64,000 bases of DNA from Trypanosoma brucei (GCA_000002445.1 CP000067.1:1280001-1344000), one strand, 5' to 3'; shown: positions 37,440-50,980, numbered from the stretch's first letter. Numbers and translations: made by a program. Notes: generated by a model not told the origin, from the sequence alone.

Positions 37440-39220
37440 TAGCGTTGGGATATGTGCGTGTCTGGAAGGTGAACCACTGGCGTGGGGAAAACGAAGTTAT
37501 AATAAACAATTAGTGGCGAGTCGCGACGATAATAAGGAACGCGTCTTTGTACCGAATTGAGCGTGGTGTGCGTAACTACAAATCCGCGCACCGCTACATA
37601 CAACTACCAAATGAAGACAAACGAAAAAGGAGGGTATAAAACCATAAAGGTGAAAGGGGCCCACGCATGACGGTCACGTATTTTAGACAACTTAATCTCT
37701 AGTAAATCTCTCGTGTGGAAGATGATCAAAAGGAAAAAAAAGTCACAAAGTTAAATTGTGAGAGTCCTGATGGCGTTGCTGAGAACGAGGCCTAAGTGAG
37801 GTTTGCTTTCCCTGCAACCTCAATCCCCCTTCCCTTGTTGCCTTCGCCATATCGCCCTTTTTCTTGGGGAGGGGAGGGGGGCGGAAGGTGCGTGCCCGCA
37901 GCAATTACACTTGAGATCCCTCTCACATCATCGCATGTACGTCACCTCTCTTTTGCCCCTTCAAGGCCACAATACAAGATCACTATTCAACGAATAAGCC
38001 CTCAAAATTAAAAAGGAAAGGGTACAAAAGCATCAAAAAACACAGGTATCGGGATGAATTAGGCAAGTACGTGTACCTCACCTTGTAACTTTTTTATCCT
38101 GCCAAATTTCTCCTCTCTTCGGCGTGGTTGTGGGATTCATTACCTGCAGCCGTGTGTTTTGAAGATATTATGTTTTATCCCCTTCCCTCCCCCACTTTAT
38201 AAAATTAAACGACTGAATCCTACGCAGCCATGGGGGCACTTCCTCATCGCCACACCTCCTTCTCCTCCTGGTACATCCCTTCTTGTTCATATGCAAACTC
38301 ATTTGTTTCTTTTTTAATTATAAATCGAAAAAGATGTCCAATGTCACAAGTTCACAGGGTAATTACCCAAGAGAAAGAAAAAGGGGGAGGGAAAGGGGGA
38401 ATATGTTGGGCGACCGGCACGAAAAAGAAAAAAAATGAAATAAGAAAATGCCAAAGTGAGGAAAAAATGACAACGAAGACAAACTAATCTCGCCTTCCGT
38501 CGTGCAACCCACACGTCCTCCTTTTTCCGAACGAAAAAAATAAAAAATTACAATTATCAGCTGTGCGGTTGCTCCGCAGACGGGGCAGTTGGTTGTTCGG
38601 AGTAACCTCCTAACTTAAAAGAAATAACCATAATAATAATAATTACACGAACCGCTTTGCGACAATAATGCCGTCTTCTGTTCACAACCCATCTCATTCT
38701 TTTTTAGTGATCAACTGAAAATACAATCAAACGCAGAAACCCGATAGCAATAATAATGCTGAAGTAAGATTAACAATTGAGTTTCAACTTAAAATAATAG
38801 TAACAGCACCGCATCCACAAATAACAAAAAAGGATCCAGGAACTTCCCAAGCTACAGTAAAACAAATGTTTAAAAAAACGTAAGCAAACAGAAGCACACA
38901 ATTGCACTTACCCGCTCAGAATCGAAACGACACAAGAAAAAGCAAATCAGGGAACCCTTCATTACGAAACATTTGAATATATAATTGGACCCTGCCATTC
39001 TTCAAAGAACAAAAGAATATATATATATATATCACACCACACTGACAAACCACAACAAATCAACTGACCGAGGCAACAAAATCTACAACAAAGGACAACA
39101 AAAAATGAAAATAAAGCGATGAATGGCAAGCAAAAAATAAAAATAAAATAAGAAGAACCAACGCGGCAATCTACAAAAAAAAAAAATGAAAAAGTACCGT
39201 TTGCCAAGCGTGGGGAATTA

Positions 39221-40699
39221 TTACCAGCCCACAGCCACTCCGTATATAGTGGCTCCAGTGCCAAATACAGACAAGGCAACACCAGCAAATAAAACTGCGT
39301 ATGTTGCAATGTAGTGTAGCCACCCAACGGTACTCAGGGACCAGTTACCACCATACATCATGAATAAGGAGGGAAGGATGAATCCAAGAAATCCACCACA
39401 CACAGAGCCAACGAAACCAAACACTGTATTAATGTTCGGAATAAATAGGCCACAAAGCAGCATAATTATGGAAATGGTTCCAATAATAGTGCAATGCTTA
39501 AAAAATGAAAGCTTCTCCGTATCCAAGCCGATAATGCCGCACAACCCATTTCGGCATGTCATTGCAAGAAGAGCGTAAGATGCGAATAGTTTTACGAGCA
39601 GGCCAACAAATCCCACCAAAATTGCCGGCTCCTTCACGGGGTCATACATCAATAACACGGAGCCTGCCACATCACGCCCAAAGTCAAGGTAACCGAAGAA
39701 TGCTGTCATGACACACAGGACAAGACATATACCCATGGCAATAGCAGAGTATGCAGTAAACCTGTGCGCACTGGGCTTTGCCATTCCGAAATATATTTCA
39801 AAAACAGAGATATGACACAAAAATGCAAACGTAAAGACACCTGGGCCTTCCACTGCCCGGTTGCTGGTGCCGAAGAGGTGAATGCCCTCATCACCTGGCG
39901 CTCCAGTAACATGTACGTTCTTAATGTTTTCCGGCAGCCCGTTCATACATGAATGCACCACAATAACTACCATAAGGTAAAATACGAAGAAAACAGAAAT
40001 CGTCGAGACATACCTCAAGGAATTCACCTCTCGTGGAATGGTGAGTGGTAGCATAAAACATAGCCACATGATGAAAGTCAGAAGGCGATTACCCCACTTC
40101 TCCTTAAGGAAGTTTGGCGCATCTGTACCCTTAAGTATTGTGCTAACAATATCGCCTGTCGCTATTATCTGCGCTACGGCTGCCCCAAATGCGTTAACCA
40201 CACGTAATACCCCCGTAAAGTACAAACAAGGCTGCCCAAGCAGCGCACGCGCCATACCCTCGTAGGATCTGAATCTATGCCGCTCCATTTGTGCACCAAG
40301 ACAATATAATGAGTATACGCATAGGAAATATATGATGATAGGGTACACAAATGTCATGACCAGTCCAGTGCTGTTGGCGGCCGCGGGCAACCCGAGGATA
40401 CCAGCTCCGATACATATGGAGGCAAGGCTGAAGGCGGTCGAAACTAGCCCGCCCGGAGGGATCATTGAAGTGAAACACTTCATGGATGACTGTTCCCCTT
40501 CTCCCTCATTAGCGGGAAGAGCATTCTTGCCCTTAAGCCCTTCATCTTCTCCACTTATCACTTCGCAGGAGCCGAAAGGAGATGTGACATCTGCCTTGTT
40601 TATCTGTTCCCTGTCTGTTGTGGGGACCACTGCGGACGCCATCCAACAACAATGATAACAGAGTGTTTGCCTTGCTTGCGCACTTACGTGCATACGCAA
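39221..40699 (-). CDS. Amino acid transporter, type A (492 aa), array copy 1
   Basis: Uninterrupted ORF with 10-11 TM helices and AAAP-family motifs. It differs from copy 2 at only a few residues. Confidence 0.85.
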   Translation of the reverse strand: MRMHVSAQARQTLCYHCCWMASAVVPTTDREQINKADVTSPFGSCEVISGEDEGLKGKNALPANEGEGEQSSMKCFTSMIPPGGLVSTAFSLASICIGAGILGLPAAANSTGLVMTFVYPIIIYFLCVYSLYCLGAQMERHRFRSYEGMARALLGQPCLYFTGVLRVVNAFGAAVAQIIATGDIVSTILKGTDAPNFLKEKWGNRLLTFIMWLCFMLPLTIPREVNSLRYVSTISVFFVFYLMVVIVVHSCMNGLPENIKNVHVTGAPGDEGIHLFGTSNRAVEGPGVFTFAFLCHISVFEIYFGMAKPSAHRFTAYSAIAMGICLVLCVMTAFFGYLDFGRDVAGSVLLMYDPVKEPAILVGFVGLLVKLFASYALLAMTCRNGLCGIIGLDTEKLSFFKHCTIIGTISIIMLLCGLFIPNINTVFGFVGSVCGGFLGFILPSLFMMYGGNWSLSTVGWLHYIATYAVLFAGVALSVFGTGATIYGVAVGW

Positions 40700-49190: not shown

Positions 49191-50582
49191 TCAATTTCCC
49201 ACCACTACGCCATGTATAGTGGCCCCCGTGCCAAACACAATGGCCAGCACACCACTAAGCAACAACGTATACGTCGCGATATAGTGAAAGGGCCCAACTT
49301 TCTGCCATGTAAATCCACCGGCATACAATAACAACAGAGCAGGGAAAATGAATCCAAGAAGTCCACCAGAGATCGAACCAGCGAGGCCAAGTACTGTATT
49401 AATGTTTGGAATAAATAGGCCACAAAGCAGCATAATTACGGAAAGGGTTACGACAGCAACACAGTGCTTCCAGAAGATCACCTTCTCCGCATCCCAACCA
49501 ATAATGCTGTACAGCGCGTTACGGCATGCCATTCCGAGCAGCGCGTAAGATGCGAATAGTTTTACGAGCAGGCCGATGAATCCCACCATAATTGCCGGCT
49601 CCTTCACGGGGTCATACATCAATAACACGGAGCCTGTAACATCACGCCCAAAGTCAAGGTAACCGAAGAATGCAGTCATGGCATACAGCACGGAGCACGT
49701 TGCCATCGCGATGCTCGTGGCGACGATAAACTTGCGTACAGACCTGTCTTCCATGTCCATGTAAACCTCATACGCCGTAATTTGTGAGACGTAGGCGAAA
49801 ATGAACACCCCAAGTCCTTCGATGGCCTTGTTCCCACTGTTAAAAAGCACAATTGCAGCCACATCATTCCTGCCCACGCTGACGTTCTTGATGTTTTCCG
49901 GCAACCCGTTCATACATGAATGCACCACAATAACGATCACAAGGTAGACAATGAAGCTAACAGCAAAGGTCGAGACGTACCTCAAGGAATTCACCTCTCG
50001 TGGAATGGCGAGTGGTAGCATAAAACATAGCCACATGATGAAAGTCAGAAGGCGATTACCCCACTTCTCCTTAAGGAAGTCTGGCGCATCTGTACCCTTA
50101 AGTATTGCGCTGAGGATATCACCCACGGATATTATGTACGCCACACAGGCGCTGAAGCCATGAAAGGCACGGGTTGCGGCCACAAGGTAGGATCCCTTGG
50201 CACCAAACAATACTTTTGCCACACCCTCAAAGTCGTGTGTTTTTGTTTTGTCTGCAGCGACACCGAGGGCATATATGGAGAATATAGTCATAACAGTAAT
50301 TATAATGAGGTATACAATAGCCATAACGAGTCCGCTACTGTTGGCAGCGGAGGGTAGACCGACGATACCAGCTCCAACGGTTGATGATGCGATGTTGAAA
50401 GCACTTGCGGCAATGCCTCCGGGTGGGATGGCGGTGGCCACAAATGTGCTCATCCGTGCAAGGAAGCCGGTTCCCTCCCGCTGCTCTTGTGACTTGGGGT
50501 CTACAGCCGCGTCGCAGCATCCGATTGGTTCGTTCCTGACTTCCATGGCGGTGGGAACCTCTCGGGAGCAGGAGTCAGTCAC
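49191..50582 (-). CDS. Amino acid transporter, type B (463 aa), array copy 3; a variant with unique internal and C-terminal patches
   Basis: It is identical to the other B copies for ~280 aa, then diverges (YMDMEDRSVRKFIVATSIAMATCSVLYAM; C-terminus ...LLLSGVLAIVFGTGATIHGVVVGN). Confidence 0.85.
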   Translation of the reverse strand: MTDSCSREVPTAMEVRNEPIGCCDAAVDPKSQEQREGTGFLARMSTFVATAIPPGGIAASAFNIASSTVGAGIVGLPSAANSSGLVMAIVYLIIITVMTIFSIYALGVAADKTKTHDFEGVAKVLFGAKGSYLVAATRAFHGFSACVAYIISVGDILSAILKGTDAPDFLKEKWGNRLLTFIMWLCFMLPLAIPREVNSLRYVSTFAVSFIVYLVIVIVVHSCMNGLPENIKNVSVGRNDVAAIVLFNSGNKAIEGLGVFIFAYVSQITAYEVYMDMEDRSVRKFIVATSIAMATCSVLYAMTAFFGYLDFGRDVTGSVLLMYDPVKEPAIMVGFIGLLVKLFASYALLGMACRNALYSIIGWDAEKVIFWKHCVAVVTLSVIMLLCGLFIPNINTVLGLAGSISGGLLGFIFPALLLLYAGGFTWQKVGPFHYIATYTLLLSGVLAIVFGTGATIHGVVVGN

Positions 50583-50980
50583 AATCGAGTCTGCGCCTTC
50601 GTTGCTCGTATTCTCTTTGTACTGGTATACGTGTGTGTGTGTTTTGGTGTGCAGTCAAAAAAATGTAGAAGAGAGTATAGGAGAAGGGAAAAGCACATTT
50701 TGTGTTATTTCCATATAGTACCCCTTTTCTCTTCGCCAAAAACATTTTGCATTATCAATGTTTATATGCTATATGTTTTATTATTATTTTGTTTTATTTT
50801 TTGGTAAAGCCATTTTGCTGGTGTTTTCCATAATTTTTTAGACGGAATTTACTCTCAGTTCAGCGAACTTCCCTTCATATATTTCTTTTCGCACTATGAG
50901 GACACATATTTTGGTTTTCATGGTTTGCGTTGCTTCAATGCGCTGATAGAGTGTTAAAGAGGCTTGACAGTCGTGGAAGT

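What the first reader, a model, noticed from the sequence alone, without database searches (positions are those of the whole stretch)
39190..50720. Amino-acid-transporter array (3 x 3.99 kb, two gene types) with mosaic gene-conversion patches
Copies 1 and 2 are almost identical. Copy 3 of type A has imported type-B segments (GACVAYIISVGDI, VSTFAV, WDAEK, LSVIMLLCGLF). Copy 3 of type B carries a ~35-aa internal patch and a C-terminus found in no other copy in the window, implying a donor elsewhere. The patches fall in TM helices and loops that in AAAP transporters line the substrate path, so the array may be diversifying substrate specificity by segmental conversion. Near-identical ~4 kb repeats are also collapse-prone in assemblies, so the true copy number may differ.
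Basis: seen in the sequence. Interest (0 to 1): 0.6.

Follow-up and report, generated by a model that had tools for sequence, protein, structure and literature searches.

The report
Known trypanosome amino-acid-transporter gene array
This is the already described six-gene amino-acid-transporter array (AAT4) on chromosome 4 of Trypanosoma brucei, a real recombination mosaic whose variant patches are mostly old differences kept in the gene pair at the edge of the array, not recent imports.

Summary
Six minus-strand AAAP transporter genes alternate between two types (A1/B1, A2/B2, A3/B3) in window 39192-50716. Units 1 and 2 are 99.1% identical. Unit 3 carries variant patches.

All six proteins are identical to T. 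b. brucei TREU927 proteins. The locus is AAT4Tb (Tb927.4.4820-4870) of Jackson 2007. That paper already reported the alternating dimorphic array and a 25-bp conversion of one copy by the other type.

- Of 73 fixed A3-versus-A1/A2 nucleotide differences, 34 match B in A3, 27 match B in A1/A2, and 12 match neither.
- The outgroups (the chromosome 8 paralogue and T. congolense) side with A3 more often.
- A1/A2 are the deviants at family-conserved residues: TM3 Tyr to Gln, TM6 Gln to His.
- Large A/B-homogenised tracts are present in all six copies.
- The B3 patch, its C-terminus and its private 3'UTR are conserved in T. b. gambiense and T. b. equiperdum. They have no near-identical donor in any annotated paralogue.
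- The B3 patch is closest to T. congolense array members.

I read the patches as old paralogue sequence that escaped homogenisation in the edge unit. Assembly chimerism is excluded by two independent assemblies and an independent clone (AATP8). Interest is low.

The parts
39192..50716 (-). Whole tandem array: three B+A units transcribed B3>A3>B2>A2>B1>A1. This is locus AAT4Tb, Tb927.4.4820-4870. Units: U1 39192-43180, U2 43181-47168, U3 47169-50716.
   Evidence: Repeat period is 3,988-3,989 bp. Unit edges lie 134 nt upstream of the B ORFs and 29 nt downstream of the A stop codon. All six proteins are identical to TREU927 AAZ11072-77. Locus naming comes from PMC1810246 and PMC2771046.
39221..40699 (-). 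A1 (AATP10-like, Tb927.4.4820), AAAP transporter. The likely true start is the ATG at 40642, giving a 473-aa protein beginning MASAVV.
   Evidence: Pfam Aa_trans E 1.7e-48. Identical to P0117. Published phosphosites T20/S21/S25/S30 fit the 473-aa numbering.
41321..42709 (-). B1 (Tb927.4.4830), AAAP transporter of type B. Its coding sequence is identical to B2.
   Evidence: P0122 = AAZ11073 = AAZ11075.
43210..44688 (-). A2 (AATP7-like, Tb927.4.4840). It differs from A1 at 12 nt.
   Evidence: P0113.
45309..46697 (-). B2 (Tb927.4.4850), identical to B1.
47198..48676 (-). A3 (AATP8, Tb927.4.4860), the variant A copy in the edge unit. Its eight variant patches are p1 48188-48210, p2 48134-48158, p3 47945-47978, p4 47777-47797, p5 47642-47653, p6 47570-47578, p7 47497-47536 and p8 47446-47454.
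   Evidence: Identical to P0115 and to the independent clone CAC86549.1. Versions 99% identical occur in T. b. gambiense and T. b. equiperdum.
49191..50582 (-). B3 (Tb927.4.4870), the variant B copy at the upstream edge. It has an internal patch at 49674-49764 (end of TM6b, a loop and TM7) and a C-terminal patch at 49194-49265 (TM11).
   Evidence: Conserved in T. b. gambiense (P0120) and T. b. equiperdum (P0121).
48774..49190 (-). 3'UTR and spacer private to B3 (417 nt). It is unrelated to the 524-nt equivalent that follows B1 and B2.
   Evidence: blastn finds matches only to itself and to the same position in T. b. gambiense (98%) and T. b. equiperdum (99%).
39938..40140 (-). A/B-homogenised tract 1, shown here for A1. 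Equivalents: A2 43927-44129, A3 47915-48117, B1 42032-42234, B2 46020-46222, B3 49905-50107.
   Evidence: A-B divergence is 2-17% here, against 27-50% to each type's chromosome 8 paralogue. Exact runs reach 71 nt.
39573..39708 (-). A/B-homogenised tract 2, shown here for A1. Equivalents: A2 43562-43697, A3 47550-47685, B1 41670-41805, B2 45658-45793, B3 49543-49678. A3 interrupts it with its own p5 and p6.
48141..48160 (-). Exact 20-nt identity between A3 and B3 (B3 50131-50150). This is the short conversion tract published as a 25-bp event (nt 511-536).
   Evidence: PMC1810246 Table 3.
43044..43079 (-). Non-coding mosaic patch in the A2-to-B1 spacer. It holds 18 substitutions in 36 nt relative to the A3-to-B2 spacer (47032-47067).
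   Evidence: The T. b. gambiense and T. b. equiperdum spacers carry the A3-to-B2 version.

Best explanation
The region is the AAT4 tandem array of Trypanosoma brucei chromosome 4. It holds three B+A units of AAAP (LeuT-fold) amino-acid permease genes inside a minus-strand polycistronic transcription unit.

Mechanism (steps marked shown or inferred):
1. A long-standing dimorphic B/A pair was amplified by unequal crossing-over. The unit runs from 134 nt upstream of the B ORFs to 29 nt past the A stop codon. Units 1 and 2 are a recent duplicate (99.1% identical). Assemblies differ in unit number, 3 against 2. (Shown: structure and identities. Inferred: unequal crossing-over.)
2. Recurrent intra-array gene conversion runs in both directions. 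It has homogenised central segments of the A and B types in every copy, and it has made unit 3 nearly identical to units 1 and 2 over most of its length. (Shown: phylogenetic incongruence against the chromosome 8 paralogues. Inferred: the mechanism.)
3. The unit at the upstream edge (B3/A3) has escaped homogenisation in short islands. Those islands carry old sequence: dS about 0.56 in the A patches and saturated in the B3 internal patch. The 'variant patches' are therefore mostly relics of older paralogue divergence, plus a few genuine short B-to-A3 tracts. They are not recent imports. (Inferred from outgroups and conservation across subspecies.)
4. At family-conserved TM3/TM6 positions A1/A2, not A3, are the derived form. 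B3 also keeps its own 3'UTR, which in trypanosomes would allow separate post-transcriptional control. (Inferred.)
For: - Identity to TREU927 AAZ11072-77 and to the AATP8 clone.
- Prior description as a six-copy alternating array with a conversion event.
- Unit structure and unit edges.
- A/B tracts at 2-17% divergence against 25-50% to the same-type chromosome 8 paralogues. The same regions are homogenised independently on chromosome 8 (c8A-c8B 0.03-0.08).
- Symmetric 34/27/12 split of the A3-versus-A1/A2 differences, and outgroup polarity of 34 against 19 and 28 against 16 in favour of A3.
- A1/A2 deviate at Y158 (Tyr in 42 of 50 family members), Q277 (49 of 50) and W373 (38 of 50).
- A3-type and B3-type genes sit at the upstream edge in the T. 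b. gambiense and T. b. equiperdum assemblies.
- The B3 patch boundaries are identical in all three genomes.
- The B3 patch is nearest to T. congolense b3/b4/b1 (31-33% divergence), while the B1 patch is nearest to chromosome 8 genes (24-28%).
- The B3 C-terminus (IHGVVVGN) resembles Tco_b2-4 (IYGVVVG). The B1 C-terminus (IWGAINI) resembles Tco_b1 (IWGTING).
- No annotated paralogue outside the locus carries any patch motif.
- Recombinants with other breakpoints exist. Teq_A is A3-like in the 5' half and A1-like in the 3' half. The Tbg_B C-terminus is half B3 and half B1.
- dS is high inside the patches and dN/dS is about 0.4.
- A dense patch also lies in a non-coding spacer.
Against: - 'Relic' and 'import from a donor that is now lost or unannotated' cannot be formally separated without a whole-genome nucleotide search, which the tools here do not offer for T. 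brucei.
- Eight small A patches separated by identical sequence need either many short conversion events or patchy repair of one heteroduplex. Neither was shown.
- The outgroup polarity is a majority, not unanimous. A1/A2 match the chromosome 8 A-like gene at 19 sites.
- The trans-specific C-terminus argument rests on about 78 nt with modest distance differences (0.33 against 0.43).
- The 2-unit arrays in DAL972 and T. b. equiperdum might be assembly collapses rather than true copy-number differences.
Confidence: 0.72

Rival explanations
1. A3 recently imported type-B segments from its neighbours, and B3 imported a patch and a C-terminus from an AAT donor elsewhere in the genome. The array is thereby actively diversifying substrate specificity by segmental conversion.
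For: - A3 and B3 share an exact 20-nt tract, and the A/B tract reaches 18 nt further in A3. The 25-bp event is published.
- The A patches map to TM3, the TM6 break and TM8 of a confident LeuT-fold model.
- The B3 patch is more diverged from its chromosome 8 counterpart (0.44-0.47) than the B1 patch is (0.25-0.27). It therefore does come from a different, older lineage.
Against: - 39 of 73 A3-specific sites do not match B. At 27 of them A1/A2 match B instead.
- Outgroups and family conservation make A3 the more ancestral form.
- No donor was found among annotated paralogues of three genomes.
- The variants are fixed at the same position, with the same boundaries, in three subspecies, so nothing recent or ongoing is visible for these patches.
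- dN/dS is about 0.4, with no excess of replacements.
- The B3 patches lie in TM7 and TM11, not in core substrate-site helices.
- A comparable patch lies in a non-coding spacer.
Confidence: 0.18
2. Assembly artefact. The variant patches, or the copy number, are chimeras or collapses of near-identical 4-kb repeats.
For: Near-identical 4-kb repeats are prone to collapse. Assemblies disagree on unit number: 3 in this window (TREU927) against 2 in DAL972 and T. b. equiperdum.
Against: - The A3 protein is identical to the separately deposited AATP8 sequence CAC86549.1.
- A3-type and B3-type genes, with the private B3 3'UTR, recur in two independent assemblies at 98-99% identity.
- The patch boundaries are the same across genomes.
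Confidence: 0.03
3. The islands of divergence are kept by selection. A1/A2-type and A3-type transporters (and B1-type and B3-type) have different substrates or regulation, and conversion events that erase the TM3/TM6 differences are removed by selection.
For: - Both A types and both B types persist in T. b. brucei and T. b. gambiense.
- The differences hit family-conserved TM3 Tyr and TM6 Gln.
- B3 has its own 3'UTR.
- Tb927.4.4860 (A3) is reported as about 2.3-fold higher in bloodstream than in procyclic forms, and in slender than in stumpy forms.
- Jackson 2007 reports an elevated evolutionary rate for the clade that contains AAT4.2, most likely the A type.
Against: - There are no transport data for any AAT4 gene.
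- dN/dS is below 1.
- The T. b. equiperdum A recombinant shows that hybrids are tolerated.
- The non-coding patch shows that islands can persist without selection on protein.
- This rival complements the best explanation rather than excluding it.
Confidence: 0.35

Closest known systems
AAT4Tb locus of Trypanosoma brucei (Tb927.4.4820-4870; AATP3, 7-10), Jackson 2007, BMC Evol Biol 7:26 (PMC1810246)
   Same: It is the same locus. The paper describes six copies, two sequence types alternating along the array, long-standing dimorphism, a partial conversion of one copy by the other type (25 bp, nt 511-536), and an accelerated rate in one type. All six window proteins are identical to the TREU927 entries.
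   Different: Nothing differs in kind. My analysis adds the following:
- the direction of change (A1/A2 derived at conserved sites);
- the large A/B-homogenised tracts present in all copies;
- conservation of the edge-unit variants across subspecies;
- the private 3'UTR of B3;
- recombinants in T. b. gambiense and T. b. equiperdum.
AAT7Tb array on chromosome 8 (Tb927.8.7600-7700, AATP1 types), the paralogous array of the chromosome 4/8 block duplication (PMC1810246, PMC2212663)
   Same: It is a dimorphic A-like/B-like AAAP array with frequent motif exchange. The same central segments are homogenised between its A-like and B-like genes (c8A-c8B 0.03-0.08).
   Different: It has 11 copies of more varied types. 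It is 25-50% diverged from the chromosome 4 genes, and I saw no sign of exchange between the two chromosomes.
Concerted evolution of T. brucei tandem arrays with partial gene conversion (Jackson 2007, BMC Evol Biol 7:54, PMC1855330; the PGK and hexose-transporter arrays cited in PMC2212663)
   Same: Tandem duplicates in polycistronic units are homogenised by conversion that also affects UTRs, while distinct sequence types persist.
   Different: Here the unit is a two-gene dimer, and the least homogenised unit is the one at the upstream edge.
AAAP / SLC36-SLC38 / AUX1-LAX transporters (LeuT fold)
   Same: Pfam Aa_trans match. The AF2 model (pLDDT 87) matches LAX3, AUX1 and SLC38A9 with TM-scores of 0.63-0.71. 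A profile of the family hits PAT1 (SLC36A1) at E 2e-18.
   Different: The substrates of the AAT4 genes are unknown. Sequence identity to solved structures is about 15-18%.

Membership tests
AAAP family (Pfam PF01490 Aa_trans; TC 2.A.18) | Significant match to the Aa_trans profile over the full domain | tested here: met
   All six ORFs score E 1e-46 to 1e-50 and cover profile positions 4-409 of 410.
AAAP family (Pfam PF01490 Aa_trans; TC 2.A.18) | 11-TM LeuT/APC fold with unwound TM1 and TM6 | tested here: met
   The AF2 model has pLDDT 87.3 and pTM 0.86, with 11 long helices and breaks at 78-79 and 275-276. Foldseek matches LAX3, AUX1 and SLC38A9 with probability 1.00.
AAAP family (Pfam PF01490 Aa_trans; TC 2.A.18) | Demonstrated amino-acid transport | not testable with these tools
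   The held literature contains no transport data for any AAT4 gene.
AAT4Tb locus (Jackson 2007) | Genomic position: chromosome 4, downstream context with single-copy AAT3 (Tb927.4.4730) nearby; six copies of two alternating types | tested here: met
   The six proteins are identical to AAZ11072-77 of TREU927 chromosome 4. Tb927.4.4860 is named amino acid transporter 8. A single AAT gene lies at 20969-22390 in the window. The types alternate A/B.
AAT4Tb locus (Jackson 2007) | Published 25-bp conversion tract near nt 511-536 in one copy | tested here: met
   A3 and B3 are exactly identical at alignment columns 522-541, and A3 matches B at 11 of 12 variable sites in 524-548. Equating Jackson's copy 'AAT4.2' with A3 is my inference from this fit.
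Gene-conversion mosaic (concerted evolution) | Segment-specific phylogenetic incongruence: paralogues within the locus closer to each other than to same-type paralogues elsewhere | tested here: met
   A1-B1 divergence is 0.02-0.17 in the tracts, against 0.25-0.50 for A1-c8_A and B1-c8_B. Clustering of differences gives permutation p <= 2e-4.
Gene-conversion mosaic (concerted evolution) | Identified donor for each variant patch | tested here: not met
   A donor (type B) is identifiable only for p2 and p3. No donor was found for p1, p4 to p6, the B3 patch, the B3 C-terminus or the B3 3'UTR among annotated paralogues. Unannotated DNA could not be searched.
Diversifying (positive) selection on patches | dN/dS above 1 in the patches | tested here: not met
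   The NG86 estimate for the A patches is dN 0.23 and dS 0.56. dS is saturated in the B3 internal patch and about 1.0 in the C-terminal patch. This is a crude pairwise estimate only.

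The most novel reading that the evidence does not exclude
The short islands that resist homogenisation are kept by selection because they set substrate specificity. A1/A2 (AATP10/7) have replaced the family-conserved TM3 Tyr and the TM6 Gln (49 of 50 family members), and so transport something different from A3 (AATP8). B3 is a separately regulated isoform through its private 3'UTR. The array would then be a natural example of functional islands surviving inside a gene family that otherwise evolves in concert.
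Probability: 0.3. Interest if true: 0.4.

Novelty: already known. Interest (0 to 1): 0.2.

Why it matters
Amino-acid uptake is central to how T. brucei adapts between tsetse fly and mammal, and several AAT loci affect drug uptake. AAT4 is functionally uncharacterised.

The practical value here is a correction. Anyone testing specificity should treat AATP7/10 (A1/A2), not AATP8 (A3), as the derived form at the TM3/TM6 sites. B3 should be treated as a separate isoform with its own 3'UTR.

As a genomic phenomenon, a dimorphic tandem array with partial gene conversion, it was described for this exact locus in 2007.

Tried and rejected
- A phmmer search of A3 alone against PDB sequences found nothing. 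A family profile was needed.
- Exact look-ups of the 490-aa A3 and of TREU927 P0123 found no record. TREU927 DNA outside the window was therefore unavailable, and I used the DAL972, T. b. equiperdum and T. congolense loci instead.
- My GENECONV-like permutation used only sites polymorphic among the six genes. It cannot see tracts where A and B are identical in all copies. Those needed the chromosome 8 paralogues as a reference.
- Searches for a B3-patch donor found nothing closer than about 72% over the patch. I tried motif and BLASTP searches over 156 collected proteins, a second database search with B3, and blastn of the B3 3'UTR against all fetched loci.
- Tandem Repeats Finder does not report the array because its period exceeds 500.
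- I considered positive selection and rejected it on dN/dS of about 0.4.
- I considered a compensated frameshift as the origin of patch p1 (QPCLYF against PYGAHL). I did not pursue it, because the nucleotide strings differ by substitutions throughout rather than by a shifted frame.

Full report
**1. What is in the sequence**

Window 39192-50716 is a head-to-tail repeat with a period of 3,988-3,989 bp. It carries six long ORFs, all on the minus strand like every other large ORF in the window.

| Gene | Window coordinates |
|---|---|
| A1 | 39221-40699 |
| B1 | 41321-42709 |
| A2 | 43210-44688 |
| B2 | 45309-46697 |
| A3 | 47198-48676 |
| B3 | 49191-50582 |

- Transcription runs B3>A3>B2>A2>B1>A1.
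- All six genes match Pfam Aa_trans over the whole domain, with E 1e-46 to 1e-50.
- Types A and B are 57-58% identical as proteins.
- Units 1 and 2 differ by 34 mismatches and one indel in 3,988 aligned bases. The B1 and B2 coding sequences are identical.
- Unit 3 is only 3,548 bp, because 417 nt after the B3 stop codon (48774-49190) are unrelated to the 524 nt that follow B1 and B2.
- The repeated unit starts 134 nt upstream of the B ORFs and ends 29 nt after the A stop codon.

The only caveat is that unit 3 is shorter than 3.99 kb.

**2. Identity of the locus**

The six proteins are residue-for-residue identical to T. b. brucei TREU927 chromosome 4 entries AAZ11072-77.

| Gene | TREU927 protein | Name given by source |
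|---|---|---|
| A1 | P0117 | AATP10 |
| A2 | P0113 | AATP7 |
| A3 | P0115 | AATP8 |
| B1 and B2 | P0122 | (none) |
| B3 | P0119 | (none) |

- A3 also equals the separately deposited AATP8 sequence CAC86549.1.
- Jensen et al. list Tb927.4.4860 as 'amino acid transporter 8'.
- Published AAT4 phosphosites (T20, S21, S25, S30 for Tb927.4.4820/4840/4860) fit the A type numbered from the ATG that gives MASAVV.

This is locus AAT4Tb of Jackson 2007 (PMC1810246). [quoted passage not shown] It reports a 25-bp tract (nt 511-536) in copy 4.2 that is identical to the other type, significant by GENECONV and SISCAN. It also reports long-standing dimorphism shared with the paralogous AAT7 array on chromosome 8, and an elevated rate in the clade containing AAT4.2. 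The core of the finding is therefore already published.

**3. Nucleotide-level test of 'A3 imported B segments'**

A3 differs from both A1 and A2 at 74 sites; 73 of these are sites where A1 and A2 agree.

| State at the 73 fixed differences | Sites |
|---|---|
| A3 matches B | 34 |
| A1/A2 match B | 27 |
| Neither matches B | 12 |

Patch by patch:
- **p2 (GACVAYIISVG).** It contains an exact 20-nt A3=B3 tract (48141-48160 = 50131-50150). This is the published event.
- **p3 (STFAV...).** The A/B-identical tract simply runs 18 nt further in A3 than in A1/A2.
- **p5 and p6 (DFGRDV, GLLVKL).** Here A1/A2 are B-like (0-12% divergence) and A3 is unique.
- **p1 and p4.** Neither A form resembles B or any other gene (at least 33-44% divergence).
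- **WDAEK and LSVIM.** These rest on two nucleotides each.

With the chromosome 8 A-like gene as outgroup, A3 holds the shared state at 34 sites against 19 for A1/A2. With T. congolense the count is 28 against 16. Across 50 family members, A1/A2 are the deviants at three conserved positions:
- Y158 (Tyr in 42 of 50) is Gln in A1/A2.
- Q277 (Gln in 49 of 50) is His in A1/A2.
- W373 (Trp in 38 of 50) is Leu in A1/A2.

The exchange is therefore two-way, and A3 is on balance the more ancestral copy.

**4.

In all six genes, three segments are nearly identical between the A and B types.
- For A1 the segments are 39938-40140, 39573-39708 and 39438-39468.
- A-B divergence in these tracts is 2-17%, with exact runs up to 71 nt.
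- Each type is 25-50% diverged from its own chromosome 8 paralogue over the same stretch.
- The chromosome 8 A-like and B-like genes are homogenised with each other in the same places (0.03-0.08).

This is segment-specific concerted evolution, arising independently in the two duplicons. Several A3 patches sit at the edges of these tracts or inside them. Part of the difference between A3 and A1/A2 is thus simply a difference in how far the tracts extend.

**5. B3 and the 'donor elsewhere'**

- The internal patch of B3 (49674-49764) is 40% diverged from B1 at nucleotide level. The C-terminus (49194-49265) is 37% diverged. dS is saturated in the internal patch and about 1.0 in the C-terminal patch.
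- Neither motif set occurs in any protein outside this locus among 156 collected kinetoplastid AATs. A second database search with B3 found nothing in T. brucei above 74% identity apart from its own cluster.
- The B3-specific 3'UTR matches only itself and the same position in other subspecies.
- B3-type genes with the same patch boundaries and the same 3'UTR sit at the upstream edge of the array in T. b. gambiense DAL972 and T. b. equiperdum, followed by an A3-type gene.
- The B3 patch is nearest to T. congolense array genes (31-33%). The B1 patch is nearest to the chromosome 8 B-like genes (24-28%).
- The two C-terminal forms have counterparts among T. congolense array members: IYGVVVG against IWGTING.

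The economical reading is that B3 descends from an older, distinct array member that has been largely overwritten by B1-type sequence. An import from a lost or unannotated donor is not excluded.

**6. Evidence that recombination continues**

- The second A gene of T. b. equiperdum is A3-like through p1-p3 and A1-like from p4 onwards.
- The internal B gene of T. b. gambiense has a C-terminus that is B3-type at nt 1282-1305 and B1-type at nt 1326-1353.
- The internal B gene of T. b. equiperdum is B1-type with the B3-like 'CC' at nt 398-399 and a 1-nt deletion.
- A 36-nt non-coding patch with 18 substitutions distinguishes the two A-to-B spacers (43044-43079 against 47032-47067). Dense patches are therefore not confined to coding or substrate-lining sequence.

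**7. Structure and the 'substrate path' claim**

- An AlphaFold model of A3 (pLDDT 87.3, pTM 0.86) has 11 transmembrane helices with breaks in TM1 and TM6. It matches LAX3, AUX1 and SLC38A9. A family profile hits PAT1 (SLC36A1) at E 2e-18.
- The 35 A1-versus-A3 replacements fall in TM3 (10), TM5 (5), the TM6 break and TM6b (5), the end of TM7 (2), TM8 (4), TM9 (3) and loops.
- From general knowledge of LeuT-fold transporters, TM1, TM3, TM6 and TM8 form the substrate site. The claim is therefore plausible for the A type.
- The B3 patches cover the end of TM6b, the following loop, TM7 and TM11, which are less central.
- dN/dS in the A patches is about 0.4, so there is no positive-selection signal.
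- The held literature has no transport data for any AAT4 gene.

**8. Artefact and copy number**

Chimerism is excluded by the independent clone and the two independent assemblies. Unit number differs: 3 units here against 2 in DAL972 and T. b. equiperdum. I cannot tell true polymorphism from assembly collapse without reads.

**9. Verdict**

The locus and its conversion mosaic are already described.

What my analysis adds is modest:
- the two-way nature and direction of the A differences;
- the large shared A/B tracts;
- conservation of the edge-unit variants across subspecies;
- the private 3'UTR of B3.

Interest is low (0.2).

Noticed in passing
window 48774-49190 (minus strand): B3 has a private 417-nt 3'UTR/spacer unrelated to the one after B1 and B2. 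It is 98-99% conserved in T. b. gambiense and T. b. equiperdum. In trypanosomes this could give B3 separate post-transcriptional regulation.
   Followed up: partly
window 43044-43079 versus 47032-47067: There is a dense non-coding substitution patch (18 differences in 36 nt) between the two otherwise 96-100% identical A-to-B spacers. The T. b. gambiense and T. b. equiperdum spacers carry the 47032-47067 version.
   Followed up: partly
L002:11978-13365 (T. b. equiperdum CM010675.1): The internal B gene of the T. b. equiperdum array has a 1-nt deletion at B nt 351 and was not called as a gene. It is either a pseudogene or a long-read indel error.
   Followed up: partly
L002:13991-15463: The second A gene of T. 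b. equiperdum (RHW73214.1) is a natural A3/A1 hybrid. It is A3-type through patches p1-p3 and A1-type from p4 onwards.
   Followed up: yes
window 20969-22390 (minus strand): A further single-copy AAAP transporter gene (473 aa, Aa_trans E 3.5e-57) lies 17 kb from the array. By position it is probably AAT3 (Tb927.4.4730, AATP11). It is only about 45% identical to the nearest collected proteins and is not a candidate donor.
   Followed up: partly
window 7302-7518 (minus strand): Two adjacent tRNA genes lie here: Leu-CAA at 7302-7374 and Val-CAC at 7442-7518. The region has few long ORFs, and GC skew changes sign near 6 kb. This may be a boundary of a transcription unit.
   Followed up: no
window 42324-42899, 46312-46887, 50197-50718 (plus strand): ORFs of 173-191 aa lie antisense to the 5' ends of the three B genes. 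They repeat with the array and are most likely non-coding shadows of the B genes.
   Followed up: no
window 40643-40699 and equivalents in A2 and A3: Start-codon annotation of the A genes is inconsistent between records: 490 aa from MHVSAQ against 473 aa from MASAVV. Published phosphosite numbering (T20, S21, S25, S30) fits the 473-aa form. Position 30 is Ser in A1/A2 but Gly in A3.
   Followed up: partly
L003 (T. b. gambiense chromosome 8) and L004 (T. congolense contig CAEQ01002298.1): Both outgroup arrays end with several B-like genes followed by a single A-like gene. The T. congolense B-like copy Tco_b2 (L004:3478-4890) has an apparently frameshifted N-terminal region.
   Followed up: no
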